A DNA stretch of 64,000 bases, taken from Ignisphaera sp. Lineage in GTDB: Archaea > Thermoproteota > Thermoprotei_A > Sulfolobales > Ignisphaeraceae. The notes below the pieces were generated by a model. That model made no database searches. It was not told the origin of the DNA and saw only the letters and a list, made by a program, of their open reading frames with translations. Positions 5,843 to 64,000 of the stretch are shown here, piece after piece. How positions within the stretch are numbered: position 1 is the first letter of the stretch; each line of letters opens with the position of its first letter. The stretch covers positions 279,764-343,763 of the forward strand of contig JAWAHS010000001.1 of NCBI GenBank assembly GCA_038889075.1, in the 5' to 3' direction. Made by a program: the position numbers and the translations under genes.

Positions 5843-6060
5843 CCTTGTGTAACTGTTTCTGATTTTATATCGGTTTATATCGGCTATAGAGCTTAAAACC
5901 GTTTCCACTATCTTCACTATTGAAATATAGTGATGTATTCGATGAGAGTACTAGGGCGCGCCCTTGAACGTCTTTAAGCCCGATGAGAACCCGAGAGAGA
6001 TGCGGGGAAACGATATGAAGCAATGACAAAAACCCGTATAAATCGATGCAAGAGCTGAAA
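5843..6060 (+). mobile_element. Mini-element copy C (degenerate non-autonomous IS607-like/omegaRNA-like element)
   Basis: Starts GCC|TTGTGTAACTGTTTC like copies A and B; contains AAGCCCGATGAGAACCCGAG (identical in copy B), ATGCGGGGAAAC and AGAGCTGAA. Confidence 0.75.
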
Positions 6061-13278: not shown

Positions 13279-14814
13279 CTATAGTGTATATCTCCAGACA
13301 CCCTTTCCTCTATAGTTATAGATTATACTCTTGTACGCTGTTACATACTCTATTGAATACCCTATGCCCTCTCTCCCTATCCCTGACTCCTTTCTTCCTC
13401 CAAATGGATAGTACCCTACACCGTGTCTAGGCATGTCATTTATATATATAGCTCCAAACTCTAGAAGCCTAATGAGTTTTCTAATTTTTTCTATGTTGTA
13501 TCCAAAGATGGATGCGTCAAGGCCGTATCTACGTCCATTTGCAAGCTCTATAGCCTCATCGAGCTGCTTAAAGGTTGTTATAAGGGATACCGGCGCAAAG
13601 ACCTCATCTCTATAGAGTCTTAACCTCTTCATATTAGCGCCATCTAAAAACTCAATTAATGTCGGTTCAATATATGTTCTACCCAATCTTCTTCCCCCAT
13701 ACAGTATTCTACCACCTAGTTTAACAGCCTCACTAATGGCATCCATTGCAGTATCCGCTGCGGTCTCATCGATCAAGGGACCCACTACTGTTTTTTCATC
13801 CCTAGGATCGCCAACAACTACTTTTGAGAGTTGCACAATAAGTAGCTCCTTCAATTTTGTGTATATAGACTCCTCGGCAATAACAAGCTTTACTGCATCA
13901 CATCTCTGGCCTGCATAGCTATATATACCTGCTGCTATGGCCTGTGCCGCAAACTCTAGATCAGCGTCATCTAGTACTATAGCAGGATCACCTCCACCGA
14001 GCTCCATGACGAACTGCTTTATCCCAGCTGAGGCTAGAATCTTTTTTCCTGTTTCACTACTTCCTGTAAAACTTATGACATGTATTCTACTATCCGATAA
14101 CAGCCTATCAGCTCCACCGCCAGGAATTGTTATAACTGCAAATGAGTCCCTAGGTACACCAGCTTCTATAGCCAGTCTAGCAAATAGTATAACCGGTAGA
14201 GGGTCTGCTGAGGAGGGCTTAATGATGACTGCATTGCCAGCTACAATACTGTAGGCAAATTTTGAGACGGTGTCAAATAGCGGATAGTTGAATGGTATTA
14301 CGGCTAGTACAACACCATATGGCTCCCTCTTAACAATAGCTTCCGTTTCGATAGTCGTTGGGTCCCAATCACCGGGTAGATAATCACCATATACTTTTCT
14401 AGCGTCTAGGTCAGCTCTTCTAAGTCTATCAATAGATGCATTTATTTCCCCAATAGCTTGAGCTCTAGTCTTTCCACTATTAATAACTAGAACCTCTACT
14501 AAGGAGTCTCTATGCTTCTCCATGAGGTCAGCCACCTTCTCTAGAATCTCAAGTCTCTTCCAACCAGGTACATCTCTAATACTCCACCTACCCGCACTAT
14601 AGACCCTCTGTACTATAGCATCTACCTCACTCCATGAGAGTTTTGGCACCTTAGCGATAATACTTAGATCTATGGGTGATTTAACATCCATATACTCTTT
14701 GCCAGCGATCCACTCTCCAGCACCATAAACTTTAAAGTACTGTAGTCCATTCCTCACCTCAAATATATCCGTAAATAGATCATCCTTTAAGTTAAGGCTA
14801 ACCACTCTACTCAC
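13279..14814 (-). CDS. gapN: Non-phosphorylating glyceraldehyde-3-phosphate dehydrogenase (GAPN, ALDH family)
   Basis: PFNYP, FTGS, MELGGGDP, YAGQRCDA, EVFAP and archaeal GAPN tail PRHGVGYYPFGGRK..YKGKGVW-like. Confidence 0.93.
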   Translation of the reverse strand: MSRVVSLNLKDDLFTDIFEVRNGLQYFKVYGAGEWIAGKEYMDVKSPIDLSIIAKVPKLSWSEVDAIVQRVYSAGRWSIRDVPGWKRLEILEKVADLMEKHRDSLVEVLVINSGKTRAQAIGEINASIDRLRRADLDARKVYGDYLPGDWDPTTIETEAIVKREPYGVVLAVIPFNYPLFDTVSKFAYSIVAGNAVIIKPSSADPLPVILFARLAIEAGVPRDSFAVITIPGGGADRLLSDSRIHVISFTGSSETGKKILASAGIKQFVMELGGGDPAIVLDDADLEFAAQAIAAGIYSYAGQRCDAVKLVIAEESIYTKLKELLIVQLSKVVVGDPRDEKTVVGPLIDETAADTAMDAISEAVKLGGRILYGGRRLGRTYIEPTLIEFLDGANMKRLRLYRDEVFAPVSLITTFKQLDEAIELANGRRYGLDASIFGYNIEKIRKLIRLLEFGAIYINDMPRHGVGYYPFGGRKESGIGREGIGYSIEYVTAYKSIIYNYRGKGVWRYTL

Positions 14815-14997
14815 CAGAATTATGAGAACCGATCAAAATTTTTTATAGTTCTGGTTATGAAAGACATTACATATTTTCAAGAGTCGTAAAGTACAGACCC
14901 TATAAAACTTCTTTTAATAAGTTACATCCTATACTATGTCATCTTAGCTCTACATATACCGTACTTTGTTAGAATTAAAACTAAATATTGTTGCAGA

Positions 14998-15278
14998 GGG
15001 GTTTAGCTCTGGTATAGGTTTATATTGGTTTCATCGCCTCATCCCTGTTTCCCCTGCATCGGTCTTGGATCTGCATCGCCCTTGGAGGTGTTTAGGGCGA
15101 CCCCGGGCACCCCACATCTTGAGTACCTCGGGGAGAGCCTTCATCGAGAGCATCACAGCGGCTCTCGAACCCCTCATCGAGATGTATCCACGTACCACTA
15201 CGCATAGAGTATTTATAAGCGTTTCTATCAATATCAACCAATGCGAACAGATATGAAAACCAAAACAGTTGTACAAGG
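14998..15278 (-). mobile_element. Mini-element copy A (non-autonomous IS607-like element with promoter and omegaRNA-like scaffold)
   Basis: Reverse complement aligns end to end with 60846-61119, from (CC)TTGTACAACTGTTT through AGAAACGCTTATAAA and CAAGATGTGGGGTGCCCGGGGTC to AGAGCTAAACCCC. Confidence 0.88.
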
Positions 15279-15484
15279 CTATAACGATACCTAATAATAA
15301 GCTGCTAAATGTTGGGAAGGGGTTGTAATACGGCCCTTATCGTAAATGGAGTACTAGTGGTATCGGTGAATTCTATTTGAAGATTGATAAAAATTGAATC
15401 TGAGTATAGCATTGACCCTTACTATGGTAATGATGCGCTGACTCTCTGTGGCAATATTAGAGGGCTTAGAATAGTTGAGGGCCT

Positions 15485-15646
15485 TTACCCTTCACCAGCA
15501 ACTAGAGCTACACCTATGGCAGCACCTCTTTTCAAAGTCCTGTCAGTAATATAAACTACCTCTCCATCAATTACCACAACTATATATCTATAGCACCTCT
15601 CTACAACTCTTTTTATATTTTCTGAAAGCCCGTGGTGGTCAGGCAT
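15485..15646 (-). CDS. Small hypothetical protein (53 aa, weakly DUF5678-like)
   Basis: MPDHHGLSENIKRVVERCYRYIVVVIDGEVVYITD...; a paralogous broken copy lies at ~8114-8190. Confidence 0.4.
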   Translation of the reverse strand: MPDHHGLSENIKRVVERCYRYIVVVIDGEVVYITDRTLKRGAAIGVALVAGEG

Positions 15647-16280
15647 TGATACTGACTACCCCGAAGGAGCTCCATTTCAGGAATGGCGGCTTAGCAATAA
15701 TGGAGCTATAACCAGTGTAACAGATACTAACAGCGGTAGTTTAGTTATTTTAAAGAGTTCTTCTCTTGGCTTAGGAAAGACGAAATACTCAACTAAATAA
15801 GCCTATGATATAGATCTGGAGTCCAGCTAGAATTTCAGAATATTTTGTAATTAGAAGAAAGAAGGCAAAAAGTGCTGGTAGAAAACCTAAAATAATAATT
15901 ATTAACGAATCTACAGTGTGTCTAAAAATGGTAGGCCCACTATAAACTTTAAAAAATATAAAGGGATTACTATCAAAATTCAGCTGATAAAAACCGGTTC
16001 CTAAGACCATTTCAATAGAACAGACATAGGATACCGGATGAGTAATAAAGTCTAGACTTAATTCAGATGAATTAGTGAACCGAAAATTAACTACAGCTTA
16101 ATTAAACCACCATCATACCTGTAGTAACCATTAATGTGGTGCTTAAATGTTTATCGCACCATGTTTTATGGTCTTTATGTGGCTGTCATTCTTCCCTCAC
16201 TCTTAAACATTCAAAGACTAGTGGAATCTATTTCTATGTATAGCCGGGCTATTGTATTCAATTCACCTGCTATATAGTAT

Positions 16281-17516
16281 TTACAGCCCTCTTAATCTAT
16301 GATAATATAAGTGTTCAAGATTTTTCCTTATAGACTCTATAAATTCCTCTGTTGTAGCCACTAGACTTGGTTGTCCCTCCATTACCTTTGCAATATCTTG
16401 TGTAACTACCCTATCTACTTCTATAGTTTTTTTCACTGCCTCCTCCAGTGTATGGGCAAATTCTATAAGTTCACTCGAACCATCTAGCTCCCCTCTCCTC
16501 TTTAGGGCTCTACTCCATGCAAATATGATTGCTGTTGGATTTGTAGATGTCTTTTCCCCCTTTAGATATCTATAGTAGTGTCTTTGCACGGTCCCATGTG
16601 CAGCCTCCGACATATAATGAGCTTCTGGAGAGAGAAGCTCTGATGTCATCATGGCTAGGCTTCCAGAGTATGCGGCCGCTATCATATCTGACAGTACATC
16701 GCCATCATAATTTTTAGCTGCCCAAACAAACCCTCCCTCAGATCTAATAGCCCTAGCATACGCATCATCGATTAGGTAGTATTCGTACTTTAGCCCCTTC
16801 TCATTGAAAATCTCTTTGAATTCCCCCTCAAATACCTCCTGGAATACCTCTTTAAATCTAGCATCGTAGACCTTAGATATCGTCTCTTTGGCTGCAAACC
16901 AGACATCTAGGTTATTCATAAGGGCGTATTTAAATACCGCTCTTGCAAAACTCTCTATAGATCTATCAAGGTTATAGTATGCTTGAAGCACACCTGGTCC
17001 TGGAAACACCCCTATCTTAACCCTTATCTCCCTACCTAATCTAGATCTGTATACAATCTCCGCCTCTCCAATATCATCAAATCTTATACCGGTGCCAGAA
17101 TATATATCTCCAAAGGCATGTCTAGCTACAACTATAGGCTTCTTCCAAAACCTTACAGCGGGAATAACACTTCTAATAACTATAGGGGCTCTAAATATTG
17201 TACCATCCAAAATCTCTCTAATTGTTGCATTAGGACTCCTCCACTCCCTTTTAAGACCATACTCTTTAACCCTTTCAGCATTAGGAGTAATGGTGGCACA
17301 CTTTACACCAACACCTACCCTTTTAATAGCCTCTGCCGCCTCTATTGTAATCCTATCGTTGGTTTCATCCCTAATCTTTATGTGAAGATCGTAGTATTCA
17401 ACCTTTAACTCAACAAAAGGCTCTATAAGTCTTTCCTTAACCCAGTGCCATACAATCCGAGCCATCTCATCACCATCAATCTCAACAATTGGTTTAATCA
17501 TAGATACCCTCTCCAT
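16281..17516 (-). CDS. icd: NADP-dependent isocitrate dehydrogenase, type II (eukaryote/Thermotoga-like)
   Basis: GDEMAR, KCATITP, WRSPNATIR, RHAFGDIY, KNYDGDV, EAAHGTV and STNP motifs; GGTGA ribosome-binding site before ATG 17516. Confidence 0.95.
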   Translation of the reverse strand: MERVSMIKPIVEIDGDEMARIVWHWVKERLIEPFVELKVEYYDLHIKIRDETNDRITIEAAEAIKRVGVGVKCATITPNAERVKEYGLKREWRSPNATIREILDGTIFRAPIVIRSVIPAVRFWKKPIVVARHAFGDIYSGTGIRFDDIGEAEIVYRSRLGREIRVKIGVFPGPGVLQAYYNLDRSIESFARAVFKYALMNNLDVWFAAKETISKVYDARFKEVFQEVFEGEFKEIFNEKGLKYEYYLIDDAYARAIRSEGGFVWAAKNYDGDVLSDMIAAAYSGSLAMMTSELLSPEAHYMSEAAHGTVQRHYYRYLKGEKTSTNPTAIIFAWSRALKRRGELDGSSELIEFAHTLEEAVKKTIEVDRVVTQDIAKVMEGQPSLVATTEEFIESIRKNLEHLYYHRLRGL

Positions 17517-59088: not shown

Positions 59089-59164
59089 TGGTAGCCGGGC
59101 GGGGATTCGAACCCCGGTCACGGGGGCCAAAGCCCCGCATCCTTGGCCGCTAGACGACCCGGCT
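59089..59164 (-). tRNA. tRNA-Gln(TTG), CCA encoded
   Basis: AGCCGGG/CCCGGCT acceptor stem, anticodon loop CT-TTG-GC, GGTTCGAATCC T-loop, ends ACCA. Confidence 0.97.
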
Positions 59165-59249: not shown

Positions 59250-60695
59250 TTAGCTAGGAGGACCATCATCTATAATAGCTGGAATACGTAGAAGTACATT
59301 ACATATGAAAGACATACTATTTGCTAAATAGAGTGGGCATTGCATATTGAAATGATGATTCCTAGACCAGACGGAGATCTTAGATGAAGAGTGGTTGCCT
59401 GCGTCGCTTATTTGGGTTTGTTTAGGTGTTTTGAATATCATGGGTATATTCGACACGGGCTTCTCCCTCATCACCTGCTCACCTGTTGCAGGGTCATCGG
59501 GAGCTACATCGACGGACACCACTGGGCCCACCGCGTGGTATATGTATCCCCCGCCTCTGATGGCTACCCAGCCATCATTGAGGCGGGAGAAGAGGTTTAG
59601 GCAAGCTACGTAGTGTGAGTTAAACTCGAATCCGCATTTCTTGCACTCGAATCTGTCACCGTTTCTGTTCTCCTTGTCCACGTACCTGCAGGATGGGCAT
59701 GTTATAGAGGTTTTCTTAGCATCAACTTTAACGACGTTCAAACCTCTCTCGTACGCTTTGTACTCAAGGTTGAATATCATCTTTCTGTATGGAAATGTCT
59801 GAAGCCTGTAGTTTAGCTTCCTACTACCTTTCCTACCGTTCATCTTCATGTCCCTCAGGTTCTCTCTAACAATGTCCGCTTTGTTCACTCTGGTGATTTC
59901 AGCTATAACAGTTGTAACCTTCTTCACTCTATCTTCAACTCTACTCCTCTCTCTAGCACCGAGCTTCTCCAGCAACTTGTTTCTCTCGTAGGTGTTATCC
60001 ACTTTTCTCTGAATAGATCTCCGAATCCTCCTGTAGTTCAATCGTAACCTACTTACGTCGTAGTTTATCGTGAAGAGTACAGCTCTACCTTTCTCATAGT
60101 CTACGAGGAGGCATGCCATGTTGTCCTCGTTGATATCGATCACCAGCTTATTCCTGTGCTCAAACACTTCAACATTCTTTCTGATGGTTAGGAGAATATA
60201 TAGGGCATCCCTATCTACGATGATCTTCGAGTTAGAGACTTTAGCATTACTGAGCTCTCTCAACGCATGGTCATAAACCAGCATGATAAACTTAGCGTAC
60301 TCACCACTACCAATAGATAACCTGAGGATCTTGGAGCTGTTTTCTTCCTCGATTCTGAACGTATCGATGTGTAGATCAACCACTCTGTTTGCATCAACGC
60401 TTGGCGGTGAAGGTGAATTCCCTCGCTTATACTTCATCCACTTTCCTAGAAGCTTCCTGTAGCTCCTGTACACTACGAGAGCTCTCTTGTAGGCTTCTTC
60501 AACATACTTGTTGTGGAGATGCGGATACCTTTCTCTAAGATACCTGTAGCAGAGCTCGTGAGCCTTCTTCCTGCTCCTCACATTGTTTTTAACTACTATG
60601 TTCAAAGCATCCATGAGAATGTTTGTGTAATCGCTTAGCAAGCTGTGTACAAGAACCTTATCTCTCTTGGAGAGTGGTACAAGCTTAATCTTCAA
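59250..60695 (-). CDS. tnpB: TnpB-family RNA-guided protein; ORF reads through the element end
   Basis: RuvC-I VIDINE, RuvC-II IVRENL, LEYKA...TSITCPSC...FECKKCG; RuvC-III reads NSHYVACLNL. Confidence 0.9.
   Translation of the reverse strand: MKIKLVPLSKRDKVLVHSLLSDYTNILMDALNIVVKNNVRSRKKAHELCYRYLRERYPHLHNKYVEEAYKRALVVYRSYRKLLGKWMKYKRGNSPSPPSVDANRVVDLHIDTFRIEEENSSKILRLSIGSGEYAKFIMLVYDHALRELSNAKVSNSKIIVDRDALYILLTIRKNVEVFEHRNKLVIDINEDNMACLLVDYEKGRAVLFTINYDVSRLRLNYRRIRRSIQRKVDNTYERNKLLEKLGARERSRVEDRVKKVTTVIAEITRVNKADIVRENLRDMKMNGRKGSRKLNYRLQTFPYRKMIFNLEYKAYERGLNVVKVDAKKTSITCPSCRYVDKENRNGDRFECKKCGFEFNSHYVACLNLFSRLNDGWVAIRGGGYIYHAVGPVVSVDVAPDDPATGEQVMREKPVSNIPMIFKTPKQTQISDAGNHSSSKISVWSRNHHFNMQCPLYLANSMSFICNVLLRIPAIIDDGPPS
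59348..59402 (+). ncRNA. C/D-box sRNA candidate (tRNA D-loop guide); D box appears damaged at the IS607 right end
   Basis: C ATGATGA (59352), guide TCCTAGACCAG complementary to tRNA-Gly 2192-2202, D' CGGA, C' TAGATGA; D position reads CTGC. Confidence 0.6.
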
Positions 60696-61317
60696 AGTCT
60701 TCTGAATAGTCTTGGTAGCCGTTTCCCACCACCTCTTCTATGGTGTTTTTTTATCTTCCTAAACTTCTGGGATCGCTTACCGTATATCCTGGCGGCGAAC
60801 GATGTTACTATCGCAACGAAGTCCTCCACTAGTTCATCCATGTAGCCTTGTGAAGCTGTTTCGTTTTTCATATTTGTTCGTATCGGTTGATAATGATAGA
60901 AACATTTATAAACACCTTATACACTAATATGCGTGAAGGTACCTCGATGAGGGATCGAGAGCCCTCGGCAAGGGCTCTCCCCGAGACACAGCAAGATGTG
61001 GGGTGCCCGGGGTCACCCTGAACGCCCCTAAGCCCGATGAGAACCCGAGCGGAATGCAGGGGAACAAGAGATGAGGCGATGACATCAACCAACAAAAACC
61101 CACATCAGAGCTGAACCCCCTTCTCGCTCTCCTCTACAACCTCTACTCTAACACCGTGCGACTCGAAGAACCGAGCGAGGTACTCGAAGCCAAACCTGGT
61201 CAACCTATCGCGGAACTCTACAACCACAACACTTATCTCGTGTTTAACCGCCATATCGAGGAGTTTCTGTAAACCACTACGCTTCTCATTCAAACCACTC
61301 GCAACATCTGTTACAAT
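60686..61317 (-). pseudogene. tnpA: IS607 TnpA serine recombinase: 5'-truncated, interrupted by mini-element B, frameshifted
   Basis: IVTDVASGLNEKR..VVEFRDRLTRFGFEYL..EESEK | GYMDELVEDFVAIVTSFAARIYGKRS; apparent extra A in an A7 run near 60750. Confidence 0.9.
60846..61119 (+). mobile_element. Mini-element copy B (non-autonomous IS607-like element with promoter and omegaRNA-like scaffold)
   Basis: Removing 60848-61119 exactly restores tnpA codons AAG|GGC TAC; CC at both junctions; homologous to copies A and C. Confidence 0.92.
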
Positions 61318-61355
61318 CCCGAAAGCCTCGTCCTTTAGGGCGGGGAGGAGGTCAG
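61315..61355 (+). mobile_element. Solo IS200/IS605-type end hairpin (PATE-like)
   Basis: TTAC|AATCCCG-AAAG-CCTCGTCC-TTTA-GGGCGGGG-AGGAGG-TCAG, the IS605/IS608-type end architecture. Confidence 0.75.
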
Positions 61356-61379: not shown

Positions 61380-61868
61380 TTATTCAGAGATTCTTAAAGT
61401 CTTTAAATACTCTATTAAACCCCCAGCTTTTAAGATATCAAGAGCCATTCCCGCTATACCTTTACATTTAATTACTTTATCATCTACTATGACCTCACCA
61501 CTTTCGATATTGATTTTAATTGTATCATTTTCATTGACTTCCTTAGTTATATTGGGACATACTATAACAGGAAGTCCATTATTTATAGCGTTTCTATAGA
61601 ATATCCTCGCAAAGGATTCTGCTAAGATAGCCTTAATACCTGCAGCTTTAATTGCTATAGCAGCTTGCTCTCTTGAAGAACCCATGCCAAATACCTTACC
61701 AGCTACTATAATAGCTCCCTTTGCCTTTCTATGAAATTCAGGATCTATAGGTTCGAATACATGCTGGGCTAGATATTCTGGATCCGTATACTTGAGATGT
61801 TTAGCTGGGATGATAATATCTGTGTCTATTTTGTCACCAAGCTTAATTACACGTCCTTCTATAATCAT
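61380..61868 (-). CDS. leuD: 3-isopropylmalate dehydratase/homoaconitase small subunit
   Basis: [32 protein letters not shown] and GGL motifs. Confidence 0.9.
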
Positions 61869-63112
61869 ATTACATCCCCAGGTTCAGCTATTTTACCTAA
61901 GACAGCAGTTGCTGCAGCTATAGATGGCCCCGAGAGATATATTTTTGCTTGAGAACTACCCATCCTACCAATGAAGTTTCTATTCGATGTTGATACGACA
62001 ACCTCATTTGGTGCTGCAATACCAAAATGTCCACCTATGCATGGACCACATGTTCCATAGGTGACTATGCATCCAGCTTCTACAAGGGTCTGTATATAAC
62101 CAAGTTCCATAGCTTTTCTAAATATACTCCAAGAAGCTGGAATAACTATGCATCTAGTCTTAACTTTTCTACCCTTTACTATTTTTGCGGCAATCTCAAG
62201 ATCGCTCAACCTGCCATTCGTACAAGAACCTATGAAAACGTAATCTACATCTATACTGGAAACCTCCCTCACACTTTTAACATTATCAACACTATGTGGT
62301 GCTGACACCAGGAGATCTACTTTATCGAGCTCTATTGTATACACATCAACGTATTCAGCATCATTATCAGGTGAGATTGCCTTTGGCATCAGTCCTCTCA
62401 TATCAGTTATGTAGTTGATAGTAATTTCATCCGGCACGAACATCAGTGCATCAGCATTCATTTCAATACCCATATTAGCAACGGTCGCCCTATAATCCAT
62501 TGGAAAACTCTTTGGCTCTTCTATAAAGACCTCTATTGCCATACCGTTAAAGTAATCTGCTTTAAAAACCCTTAAAATTTCTAGAGCCACATCCTTTCCT
62601 GTTACCCAATTTCCCAGCCTTCCGCTCAACACTATTTTGAATGGATATGGTACCGTCATCCACGTCTTTCCAGTAATTATTGTAGCAGCAACATCGCTTG
62701 CACCCATACCTTGCGAAAAAGCACCTAGTGCACCAGATGTAGTTGTATGGCTATCTGCAGCTATAACGATATGTCCGGGTAGTACATATTTTTCTAGTAG
62801 GATTTGATGCAAAATACCATAACCAACATCGTGGAAGTTTCTGATCTTAAGAGCCTTGGCGAAACCTCTTATATATTGCTGTATCTCAGCACTCCTTACA
62901 TCTGGAGGAGGAGCTAGATGGTCAAATGCTATGACAAGTGAGTTCGTATCGTGAATTTTCAACATGTTTGCCCTTTCCATAACTTCGATAACGTGGTACC
63001 CAGTTAGATCATGAAAGGCAACAATATCGACATTAGTTTCTATGACATCCCCCGGGGATACGCTCTTTCCAGAGCCTCTGCTTAAGATTTTCTCGGTTAG
63101 TGTTTTGCCCAT
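61865..63112 (-). CDS. leuC: 3-isopropylmalate dehydratase/homoaconitase large subunit
   Basis: [26 protein letters not shown] and NRNF.GRMG motifs; GGTGA ribosome-binding site before ATG 63112. Confidence 0.92.
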
Positions 63113-64000
63113 TTTATCACCACGATCTATTAGATAGACCAAACTTGGATGTTGATATTAAATATGCTCACATAAATGGTAAGATATAAGCGAACATGCT
63201 CCATAAAGCTCCATATATCAATTGAATTTATTATATAGATGCGTGAGATTGGAATTCGCTTTGATATAGATTTATATTAAGTCAATGTCAGCTTCACTGC
63301 TCCATCTTGTTTCTCCTGCATCCTTTTCAAGTTTTTGTCTAGATTAGGAGTGTTTAGGAACATCTACATCTTACGTAGTGTATGTTGACGCTGCATTCTC
63401 CTATAGAACTAAAGGAAGTTAGCTGAATGACATTGTAATAGAGCCTTACAAAGTCAACCAGATTCTCATAGCCATTGCTACTCTTGCAGAAGCTGTTCTC
63501 CGATTACCATTGAACAGCTTCTAGGTAAAGGTTAGTGAAATAGAGTTGAATTGTTTAGATTAATGTTATGTATAGGAATAGAGGCTACAAACACTATATA
63601 TTGAGGGTAATAGAGAAAGAGCTAGGTAGCTATATAAAACGAAGTACATATATTGCTCATCAGAAGAGTAACCCAAAGTACAGTGTGAAACTCACAATAG
63701 TTTCGCAAAGCAGCTCGTTATTACTAATTAATACAAGATTGTGAAATTGAATAATAAAGTTAGAACTGCATCCAACCGTATAGTTCAAAGCTATGATGTA
63801 ACATCTTTGATCTCATTAAATATGAATTGATTTAATAGTGTTCCTAGGATGTCAGCTAATGTATCTTAAATCAATTGCCGAAATTTACAATTCCGTATGT
63901 TCTAGAATTCCACGGGGTATATCCAAATGTTCTTAATGGGATGCAAATCCTTGAATTTATAATACAAAGATGTGTAGAAATGCGATATTAAAATGATGCG

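What the first reader, a model, noticed from the sequence alone, without database searches (positions are those of the whole stretch)
14998..15278. Family of protein-free mini-transposons that appear to express only a TnpB-type guide RNA
Seen: three non-coding copies, A (14998-15278, -), B (60846-61119, +) and the more degenerate C (5843-6060, +). All start GCC|TTGT.. followed by ~10-nt-period T-rich repeats and end with ~10-nt A/C-rich repeats plus AGAGCT(G/A)AA; A and B finish in CCCC. A and B carry a BRE/TATA promoter (AGAAAC..TTATAAA) and then a GC-rich structured ~190 nt region. Its hairpin GAGAGCC..GGCTCTC is conserved while the loop length differs, and in B GATGTGGGGT can pair with ACCCACATC. 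Knowledge: IS607 ends carry short repeats, insertion uses a GG/CC core without target duplication, and the TnpB omegaRNA is encoded at the right end with its guide taken from flanking DNA. Inference: these are mobile stand-alone omegaRNA cassettes. Each new insertion would create a new guide for a TnpB supplied in trans, forming a dispersed guide repertoire.
Basis: partly seen in the sequence, partly recalled or inferred. Interest (0 to 1): 0.9.

Follow-up and report, generated by a model that had tools for sequence, protein, structure and literature searches.

The report
Gene-less IS607 mini-transposons carrying TnpB guide RNA
The three repeats are protein-less miniature copies of an archaeal IS607-type jumping gene that keep only its ends, a promoter and the guide-RNA scaffold of the TnpB nuclease, which is a clear example of a kind of element that is already described.

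Summary
A (14998-15278, -), B (60846-61119, +) and the degenerate C (5843-6060, +) belong to a family with 18 BLAST matches in this 1.95-Mb hot-spring archaeal genome and matches in 12 of 16 other genomes of its genus.

Each copy is an internal-deletion derivative of a 1.5-kb tnpB-only element. It keeps the left end, the tnpB promoter, about the first 25 codons with a conserved hairpin, then the last ~20 codons, the 3' scaffold and the right end.

The ends match an IS607-type element (serine-recombinase tnpA plus tnpB) on another contig. An empty site in a related genome shows insertion at a CC core without target duplication. 29 of 32 left flanks read G before that CC.

Covariation in the scaffold is moderate. 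A second, independent mini family in the same genome keeps every RNA stem. Transcription is only hinted at, and loading by TnpB in trans is untested.

Stand-alone mobilised omegaRNAs, PATEs and Sulfolobus RNA-257 are already in print. This scan also reported such elements earlier on other DNA. Verdict: new member of a known kind.

The parts
14998..15278 (-). Copy A: complete 281-bp 'alpha' mini-element. It runs G+CC core, left end, promoter, tnpB 5' remnant, scaffold, right end ending CCCC.
15227..15278 (-). Left end of A, with subterminal motifs (GGTTT.., GGTTGAT) that recur inverted at the right end
   Evidence: I1: 14 nt, 86% complementary; I4 TTGGTTT/AAACCAA; LE identity 0.87 among 8 minis
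15210..15226 (-). BRE/TATA-like box of A (AGAAACGCTTATAAATA). It is homologous to the box upstream of tnpB in full-length elements.
15126..15181 (-). Remnant of the first ~25 codons of tnpB, forming the conserved GAGAGCC/GGCTCTC hairpin
14998..15121 (-). Last ~20 codons of tnpB, 3' tail and right end. This is the predicted omegaRNA scaffold of A.
14978..14997 (-). Flank 3' of A's right end: predicted guide. Family similarity stops here.
60846..61119 (+). Copy B: complete 274-bp alpha mini, inserted in the tnpA remnant of a different IS607-type element
60898..60914 (+). BRE/TATA-like box of B
60943..60986 (+). tnpB 5' remnant and hairpin of B; the loop is 12 nt shorter than in A
60992..61119 (+). 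Predicted omegaRNA scaffold and right end of B; 91% identical to the 3' end of the full-length element on contig C9
61120..61139 (+). Predicted guide of B; this is antisense tnpA sequence of the host IS607 relic
5843..6060 (+). Copy C: degenerate mini. The left end is kept. The TATA box, hairpin and first scaffold stem are lost, and the terminal CCCC is lost.
63242..63377 (-). Heavily decayed scaffold and right-end relic of the same family
59250..61347 (-). Context: 5'-truncated IS607-type relic ('gamma'). The tnpA fragments at 61126-61347 and 60692-60845 are split by B. The tnpB ORF is 59250-60695.

Best explanation
A, B and C are non-autonomous (MITE-like) internal-deletion derivatives of a 1.5-kb tnpB-only IS607-family element. 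Shown: each consists of the left end, the tnpB promoter, the first ~25 codons of tnpB, then directly the last ~20 codons, the 3' tail and the right end. No conserved reading frame remains. They sit at a CC core without target duplication, and G precedes that core in most copies. Inferred: they were moved by a serine-recombinase TnpA supplied by an autonomous IS607 relative with matching ends. Inferred: the retained tnpB promoter transcribes a ~215-nt RNA whose 3' ~125 nt are the omegaRNA scaffold and which runs on into the right flank, the guide. Inferred: TnpB made by the two full-length copies in the same genome loads this RNA in trans and cuts the empty site (HGCC followed by the right-flank sequence) left by excision or present on incoming DNA. 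Recombination with a filled copy would then restore the mini-element. On this reading it is a hitch-hiker on both the transposase and the homing nuclease of its parents.
For: Parentage. The full-length element C9:16878-18376 (-) carries the same left end, promoter, 5' hairpin, 3' tail and right end around a 414-aa ORF. That ORF hits PF07282 at E=1.9e-15. It aligns to solved TnpB/Cas12f chains through the region that holds the VLENL (RuvC-II) and DRD..A..N (RuvC-III) motifs; I read the AIDVN (RuvC-I) motif in the translation. A second full-length copy is 86% identical (356 of 414 residues). The two scaffold types (GCCC..GCGG and GGGC..GACC) each occur in one full-length copy and in several minis.

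IS607 type. There are 2 PF00239 hits and 0 PF01797 hits in the genome. The contig C5 tnpA+tnpB element shares the first ~45 nt of the left end and the AACCAA/AAACC..ACCCC right-end motifs. The ends carry subterminal inverted motifs and no terminal repeats. The empty site in L082 reads CATGTA-ACC-CTTCTC, against CATGTA-GCC-[element]-CC-CTTCTC in the window.

Left flank. G precedes the CC core in 29 of 32 distinct left-end flanks. Among those 29, the base before the G is never G.

Constraint. Among 8 minis the hairpin (0.82), scaffold (0.79) and right end (0.84) are better kept than the TATA-to-hairpin spacer (0.63). For a 15-pair model on 32 sequences, 90.6% of cells pair against 83.7% in shuffles. 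35 cells changed on both sides against 11.6 (0 of 500 shuffles reach it). The covariation score is 0.246, against 0.159 for the best slid control.

Recurrence. An 'alpha2' mini with a different junction occurs in relatives. A 'beta' mini family derived from the C5-type element keeps the left end with its TATA box and all predicted stems, and deletes ~68 nt of coding sequence between stems. Stem 1 carries three compensatory pairs relative to the parent.

No conserved ORF was found in the 9 minis.

RNA hint. In metatranscriptome run X18, contigs lie on 15025-15139, while the unique flanks 14712-14913 and 15318-16500 have depth 0 and three DNA runs cover those flanks.

Precedent. 60-bp ends suffice for IS607 TnpA excision, and TnpB cuts the donor joint (passages). 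Stand-alone omegaRNAs work in trans (passage).
Against: No intact serine-recombinase gene was found in this 99.6%-complete, 25-contig assembly. One copy is split by a 1.3-kb insertion; the other is truncated and split by B. Present-day mobility here is therefore doubtful.

Copies are 65-92% identical, so none is recent. No contig of three DNA metagenomes joined across the whole element.

Three of 9 minis have a degraded TATA box (CTATAGG). Three of 9 have GGATGT in place of GGGGTG in the first stem. Seven of 9 have CAGAGG where both full-length copies have CAGGGG.

RNAalifold alone found only 9 pairs. My 15-pair model was drawn from the same sequences. The count of pairs with a change on both sides is no better than in shuffles (5 against 4.4; 235 of 500).

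The RNA-library contigs are mostly 90-95% alike (32 of 37), so they come from sibling copies. Contigs cannot show strand, start or end.

In the one empty site, the base before the CC is A, not G.
Confidence: 0.6

Rival explanations
1. These are plain decaying MITEs. They were mobilised in the past through their ends. The promoter, hairpin and scaffold are passengers left by one ancestral deletion, and any RNA made has no function.
For: All alpha minis read share one deletion junction, in this genome, in G010 (L029), in G011 (L031) and in L063. Retention could therefore be historical. No intact tnpA was found. Several copies are damaged: C and C14 carry deletions, 3 of 9 have a degraded TATA box, and 3 of 9 have a broken first stem. 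The relic at 63242-63377 shows how copies decay.
Against: The spacer evolves faster (0.63) than the hairpin and scaffold (0.79-0.82). Compensatory changes occur. Minis with two other junctions (alpha2, beta) kept the same modules although ~60 bp of each end suffices for transposition. Independence is clear for beta and only likely for alpha2.
Confidence: 0.25
2. They are transposon-derived regulatory RNAs that act by base pairing, like RNA-257 of Sulfolobus solfataricus. They would act as sense or antisense partners of tnpB mRNAs, or of host mRNAs whose ends overlap IS copies.
For: Martens et al. 2013 (PMC3674436; passages read) describe four intergenic, promoter-bearing, transcribed RNAs. Their core derives from the distal tnpB of an ISC1904 (IS607-family) element, and they regulate an mRNA through its 3' UTR. 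One mini's right flank matches a gene on contig C12 at 19 of 20 positions.
Against: The conserved parts are intramolecular stems rather than a target-complementary stretch. The elements keep both transposon ends, which a regulator does not need. The 19-of-20 match lies in the flank, not in the element.
Confidence: 0.1
3. They encode a C/D-box or other K-turn sRNA, as suggested by the repeated GATGA and CTGA motifs, or a small protein.
For: GATGA-like motifs recur (D2 and D3). A weak Rfam match to a C/D snoRNA model has E=5.1 and 13.3 bits against a gathering score of 75.
Against: No Rfam family reaches its threshold. The motifs fall inside tnpB-derived sequence. ORFs differ in frame and length between the 9 copies.
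Confidence: 0.03

Closest known systems
Stand-alone mobilised omegaRNAs of OMEGA systems (attributed to Altae-Tran et al. 2021 in Altae-Tran et al. 2023, PMC10691335; passage read)
   Same: Guide-RNA loci that are evidently mobilised and lack both effector and transposase. They lie in genomes that also hold effector-bearing copies, and they are reported to work in trans.
   Different: Those were described mainly for IS200/IS605-type systems in bacteria. Here the carrier is an IS607-type element of a hyperthermophilic archaeon, with the tnpB promoter and a tnpB 5' hairpin retained. I did not read the 2021 paper itself.
PATE-like gene-less IS200/IS605 elements of Geobacillus stearothermophilus (Meers et al., PMC10055086; passages read)
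   Same: Protein-less elements with both transposon ends that 'often encode omegaRNAs' needing TnpB from other IS copies.
   Different: PATEs use Y1 (HUH) TnpA and subterminal palindromic hairpins. No Y1 transposase was found here. The ends carry short subterminal motifs and a CC core typical of serine-recombinase IS607.
RNA-257(1-4) of Sulfolobus solfataricus (Martens et al. 2013, PMC3674436; passages read)
   Same: Intergenic, promoter-bearing RNAs derived from the distal part of the tnpB gene of an IS607-family element (ISC1904) in a crenarchaeon.
   Different: Those were described as remnants of rearrangements that gained a promoter by point changes, and were shown to act as antisense regulators. 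The copies here keep both transposon ends and the original tnpB promoter.
CboIStron / IS607 TnpA_S-TnpB homing system (Zedaveinyte et al., 10.1101/2023.11.20.567912; passages read)
   Same: A serine recombinase excises a circle and restores a donor joint. The core dinucleotide lies inside a 4-nt target/TAM motif (TGGG there, HGCC here). A mini-IS without genes is excised, and its omegaRNA works with TnpB in trans.
   Different: That mini-IS was engineered and the element carries a group I intron. Here the minis are natural, intron-less and archaeal, and the core reads CC on the guide-RNA strand.

Membership tests
IS607-family insertion sequence (non-autonomous derivative) | An autonomous relative with matching ends encodes a serine-recombinase TnpA with an N-terminal DNA-binding domain | tested here: met
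   The C5:38325-41578 element shares the left end and has a PF00239 hit. An HTH-like N-terminus is seen in the translation, but the gene is interrupted. An intact IS607-type TnpA (HTH_17 + Resolvase) was confirmed by Pfam only for the unrelated 'gamma' element L082.
IS607-family insertion sequence (non-autonomous derivative) | No terminal inverted repeats; short subterminal motifs at both ends | tested here: met
   the inverted motif pairs lie 20-45 nt inside the ends (A: 14 nt at 86% and 7 nt at 100%; B: 16 nt at 75%). The termini themselves (GCCTTGT / AACCCC) are not inverted.
IS607-family insertion sequence (non-autonomous derivative) | No target-site duplication; the same 2-bp core at both ends and in the target | tested here: met
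   One empty site was found, L082, 93% identical in both flanks. It holds a single CC where the filled site has CC at each junction. Only 1 of 20 elements tried gave an empty site.
IS607-family insertion sequence (non-autonomous derivative) | Mobilised by TnpA through a circular double-stranded intermediate | not testable with these tools
   No intact tnpA in this assembly. Needs an excision assay.
TnpB omegaRNA | Encoded at the 3' end of tnpB, overlapping its last codons and running to the right end | tested here: met
   The retained 3' block starts at the codons for ..YSRCGVPG and ends at the right end in both full-length copies.
TnpB omegaRNA | Conserved secondary structure supported by covariation | tested here: inconclusive
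   Alpha scaffold: 35 cells changed on both sides against 11.6 in shuffles (0 of 500), but pairs with such changes number 5 against 4.4, and the model was hand-drawn from these sequences. RNAalifold found 9 pairs. The long-range GATGTGGG/CC.A.ATC helix shows 86.8% pairing with no two-sided change. The beta family shows three compensatory pairs in stem 1, but on only 5 sequences.
TnpB omegaRNA | The guide is the flank 3' of the right end; a fixed adjacent motif (TAM) lies at the left junction | tested here: met
   Similarity ends at CCCC in all aligned copies. G precedes the CC core in 29 of 32 left flanks. This is a sequence-level expectation only; cleavage was not tested.
TnpB omegaRNA | Transcribed and bound by TnpB | not testable with these tools
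   Only contigs of one RNA library were available. They show family-level presence, with no strand, ends or binding.
PATE (IS200/IS605-derived palindrome-associated element) | Y1/HUH TnpA partner and subterminal palindromic hairpins at both ends | tested here: not met
   0 PF01797 hits in the genome. The only strong hairpins are internal: the tnpB 5' remnant and the scaffold.
Curated RNA family (Rfam 15) | Match at or above a family's gathering score | tested here: not met
   Whole window: 2 tRNAs only. B region at E<=10: two chance-level hits. Full-length loci L023 and L024 at E<=1: none.

The most novel reading that the evidence does not exclude
The minis are hyperparasites that use TnpB as a weapon between transposon families. 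B sits inside the tnpA of a different IS607 family, so its predicted guide (the flank after CCCC) plus the GCC motif would direct a trans-supplied TnpB to every intact copy of that rival transposase gene. Each such copy would be converted into a B-carrying, dead allele. The retained tnpB 5' hairpin, kept with shrinking loops in minis with two different junctions, would be an added functional module of this archaeal guide-RNA transcript and not a leftover.
Probability: 0.15. Interest if true: 0.7.

Novelty: new member of a known kind. Interest (0 to 1): 0.33.

Why it matters
These minis act as a natural deletion series. Minis with three different deletion junctions in one genus keep the ends, a promoter and every predicted RNA stem of a TnpB element and discard the protein. 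That marks the minimal guide-RNA unit of two thermophilic archaeal TnpB systems not represented in Rfam. It also gives a candidate HGCC target motif. This could guide tests of heat-stable TnpB editors, and of how protein-less elements exploit both the transposase and the homing nuclease of their parents. It does not change the current picture of OMEGA systems.

Tried and rejected
RNAalifold on 32 scaffold sequences gave only 9 pairs and -6.9 kcal/mol. I therefore drew helices by hand and tested them.

Empty sites. A search of 17 genomes of the genus with A and its flanks found only the left-hand gene at 67-81% identity and no empty site. A flank search for 20 elements against all held loci and the own genome found one empty site only, that of B.

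Read laying. No contig of 3 DNA runs joins across the whole of A. Only two 90-nt skips inside the element were listed. The contigs end at the repeat. One RNA-library contig (X18 record 16, 15079-15139) runs from the scaffold over the mini-specific junction, but it has only about 14-18 letters beyond it, under the 31 the tool asks for bridging.

Second targets. For 14 elements, an 18-nt guide search with up to 3 mismatches found no second site next to GCC. The single 19-of-20 match lacks the motif.

Rfam searches at gathering and E-value thresholds found nothing. The C/D-box or K-turn idea was dropped for that reason and because the GATGA motifs lie in tnpB-derived sequence. A small-protein reading was dropped because ORFs are not conserved.

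Viral contigs. A 14-mer of the right end matched 71 IMG/VR stretches, and 0 of the 71 hold the scaffold by nhmmer at E<=1e-3. These are chance matches.

Literature. Searches for an IS607-derived natural omegaRNA MITE listed none under those terms. This says nothing about papers outside the held library, and paper supplements were not seen.

Full report
What is there. I read the three stretches and aligned them (341 columns, 73% mean column identity). A (14998-15278, minus strand) and B (60846-61119, plus strand) are complete. C (5843-6060) keeps the left end and the last ~110 nt but has lost the TATA box, the hairpin and the terminal CCCC. The window lies in a 1,951,966-base, 25-contig, 99.58%-complete genome. 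Relatives of the element's TnpB come from hot-spring MAGs labelled Ignisphaera sp., Desulfurococcaceae, Sulfolobales and Thermoproteota. B finds 18 places in its own genome at E<=0.001. Across 41 genomes searched, 15 have a match at E<=1e-5, including 12 of 16 other genomes of the genus. An alignment of the nine full-length mini copies with 30-nt flanks shows sharp borders: GCC(T/A).. on the left and ..AGAGCTGAACCCC on the right. Profile searches give 24 left-end and 31 right-end hits at E<=0.1 in the genome. These comprise about 13 paired minis, three gene-bearing elements and many solo ends. One decayed relic lies in the window at 63242-63377.

What the copies are made of. Matches that cover only the 3' half of the mini led to two gene-bearing elements. 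One is C9:16878-18376 (minus strand, ~1.5 kb). The other is C1:444705 to the contig end. The C9 element reads, in order: the same left end; ~150 nt; a GAGAAAAGATTATAAG box; a 414-residue open frame whose 5' end holds GGAGAGC..GGCTCTCC; and a 3' end identical in layout to the mini's last ~125 nt. The frame is a TnpB. It hits PF07282 at E=1.9e-15. It matches TnpB/Cas12f chains in the PDB; the best chain is 8hr5_A at E=4.2e-10. The AIDVN motif is read in the translation. The VLENL and DRD..A..N motifs stand at the RuvC positions of the alignment. The two copies are 86% identical (356 of 414 residues) and differ most in the last 14 residues, where the scaffold types differ. An alignment of 22 full-length and 11 mini 5' regions shows that the mini's promoter box, leader and hairpin are homologous to the tnpB promoter and first ~25 codons. 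It also shows that all alpha minis read, in this genome and in L029, L031 and L063, share one junction, CCCC(G/A)AG(G/A)|T(A/G)C.CAAGATG. The 'GC-rich ~190 nt' of the finding is therefore a tnpB 5' remnant (~75 nt) fused to the tnpB 3' end and tail (~125 nt). ORFs in the nine minis differ in strand, frame and length, so 'protein-free' holds.

Which transposon family. The genome has no Y1 (IS200/IS605) transposase hit and two resolvase-domain hits. One is in C5:38325-41578, an element with tnpA, a 445-aa TnpB (PF07282, E=7.8e-15), a left end matching the minis over ~45 nt, and a right end built from the same AACCAA/AAACC motifs and ending ACCCC. Its tnpA is split by a 1.3-kb insertion. The other hit is at window 61126-61347, directly beside B. 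It belongs to a 5'-truncated IS607-type relic of another subfamily ('gamma'), whose tnpA B has split. A 92-93% identical, intact gamma element in a related genome (L082) has TnpA with HTH_17 plus Resolvase and a 436-aa TnpB. It provides the empty site: CATGTA-ACC-CTTCTC, against CATGTA-GCC-[TTGTG...GAACC]-CC-CTTCTC in the window. Removing the element and one CC restores the frame E-K-G-Y-M. There is thus no target duplication, and one CC is shared by target, left junction and right junction. This is as reported for IS607, where the core is GG (passages read). Subterminal inverted motifs link the two ends.

Left-flank motif. Among 32 distinct left-end flanks from this genome and relatives, the base before the CC core is G in 29. 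Among those 29, the base before the G is A in 15, C in 8, T in 6 and never G. This parallels the TGGG target/TAM of the Clostridium botulinum IStron, in which GG is the core. The right end reads (A)ACC before its CC, so a TnpB that needs G there would spare filled sites; this is inference. In the single empty site the base is A. That could be a synonymous GGT/GGC difference between 93%-identical orthologues, or it could mean the G travels with the element. I cannot tell which.

Is the retained RNA constrained? Among eight full minis, pairwise identity is 0.87 for the left end, 0.75 for the BRE/TATA box and 0.63 for the spacer after it. It is 0.82 for the hairpin, 0.79 for the 5' part of the scaffold, 0.84 for the right end and 0.26-0.31 for the flanks. 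RNAalifold on 32 scaffolds was weak (9 pairs). A hand-drawn 15-pair model has two pseudoknotted stem pairs: columns 9-14 with 23-28, 18-21 with 34-37, 42-43 with 60-61, and 53-55 with 69-71. It gave 90.6% paired cells against 83.7% in shuffles. 35 cells changed on both sides against 11.6 (0 of 500 shuffles). The score was 0.246 against 0.146, and at most 0.159 when slid. The number of pairs with two-sided change was no better than in shuffles (5 against 4.4), and the model came from these same sequences. In full-length elements the hairpin in the tnpB 5' end shows GGAGAGC/GCTCTCC changing to GAAGAGC/GCTCTTC in several relatives. That couples a Gly-to-Glu change with a synonymous Leu change, although some sequences carry a mismatch instead (read by eye). 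I rate the structure evidence as moderate.

Recurrence. Relatives hold an 'alpha2' mini with a different junction (CCCCAAGGGCAGCA(A/G)C|CCAAGATG) and a 5-nt hairpin loop. In G005, 14 of the 18 scored matches start at query position 103-126, as this form does; I read only one G005 copy (L047), and three further copies from two other genomes. In the window's own genome a 'beta' family has copies at C4:33727-34035, C1:356587-356873, C12:42314-42623, C2:~97255-97573 and a shorter one on C6. It derives from the C5-type element. It keeps the left end with a TTTATAAGG box, a 9-bp stem taken from the zinc-finger codons of tnpB, and everything from AAGATGTGGGGG to the right end. It deletes ~68 nt of coding sequence between them. 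Relative to C5, stem 1 carries three compensatory pairs (CCCATCCAC/GTGGATGGG against CCTGCCCAC/GTGGGCAGG) (five sequences). About 60 bp per end suffices for IS607 excision. Repeated retention of a promoter and all stems therefore argues that the RNA matters.

Expression. Of 24 public runs listed for a 3-kb stretch around A, one is an RNA library (X18). When laid as contigs, X18 covers the neighbouring gene (13500-14699) and, within the element, chiefly 15015-15115 (summed depth 224, against 16-39 in the other element bins). Depth is zero on the unique flanks 14712-14913 and 15318-16500, which three DNA runs do cover. Of the 37 X18 records laid, 32 are only 90-95% alike, so they stem from sibling copies, possibly full-length ones. 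Contigs show no strand or ends. This is a hint, not proof.

What it most likely does. The parts fit the homing model worked out for IS605 and IS607. The mini would be moved by a TnpA supplied in trans and transcribed from the old tnpB promoter. Its RNA would be loaded by TnpB from the full-length copies; one copy of each scaffold type is present. TnpB would then cut the vacated HGCC-plus-flank site so that recombination refills it. Guides of 14 elements match only their own flank, as homing predicts. A 'repertoire' aimed at other targets is not supported. Against current activity: no intact tnpA was found, copies are 65-92% identical, and several are damaged.

Comparison with what is known. 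Altae-Tran et al. 2023 state that stand-alone, evidently mobilised omegaRNAs without effector or transposase occur beside effector loci and function in trans (passage read). Meers et al. state that PATE-like gene-less elements often encode omegaRNAs that need TnpB in trans (passages read). Martens et al. 2013 describe promoter-bearing RNAs derived from the distal tnpB of an IS607-family element in Sulfolobus (passages read). The element here works like these, but it is not a PATE because the Y1 transposase and end hairpins are not met. No Rfam family matches. My five literature searches listed no natural IS607-derived omegaRNA mini-element. Earlier follow-ups of this scan, however, reported the same design in other archaeal genomes and judged it known (I did not check these). 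I file it as a new member of a known kind, interest 0.33.

Noticed in passing
window 59250-61347 (-): A 5'-truncated IS607-type relic of a different subfamily. Only resolvase profile positions 24-102 remain of the tnpA N-terminal part. The 481-aa tnpB ORF reads H (..SHYVACLN..) where the C9 TnpB has the RuvC-III Asp, and it runs on past the presumed right end. An intact 93%-identical element exists in a related genome (L082).
   Followed up: partly
window 61120-61139 (+) and L082:1690-1720: B's predicted guide is antisense tnpA sequence of the host relic. The intact orthologous site in L082 differs by A for G before the CC core and by one base at guide position 7.
   Followed up: partly
G000 C5:39800-41100 (L019:350-1480, +): The tnpA of the C5 IS607 element is split by a ~1.3-kb insertion. 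The insertion encodes a 376-aa protein with no Pfam match at E<=0.01. Its sequence contains GVDVNTDRLN and VALENP motifs that look RuvC-like.
   Followed up: partly
G000 C4:33727-34035, C1:356587-356873, C12:42314-42623, C2:~97255-97573, C6:~61770-61970: A second, independent family of ~230-310-bp gene-less minis derived from the C5-type IS607 element. It has a richly structured 3' region (alifold -78 kcal/mol on 5 sequences).
   Followed up: partly
G000 C12:25890-25911 against the flank of the mini at C1:207113: The 20 nt after the right end of one mini match a protein-coding gene on contig C12 at 19 of 20 positions (BLAST E=6e-5 within a 1.8-kb subject). The site is not preceded by GCC. This may be chance or a captured fragment.
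   Followed up: partly
G005 (many contigs), L047, L035, L048, L033: An 'alpha2' mini form with a 5-nt hairpin loop and another deletion junction. 14 of the 18 scored matches in G005 start where this form starts.
   Followed up: partly
window 59092-59164 (-): A tRNA gene (Rfam, 56.7 bits) lies about 90-250 nt beyond the end of the tnpB ORF of the IS607 relic. The relation to the element's right end was not examined.
   Followed up: no
G000 C12:19463-21963: A solo left end (C12:19505-19463, -) and a right end with scaffold (C12:21829-21963, +) flank a 674-aa open frame that has only a weak PF07282 hit. The arrangement was not resolved.
   Followed up: no
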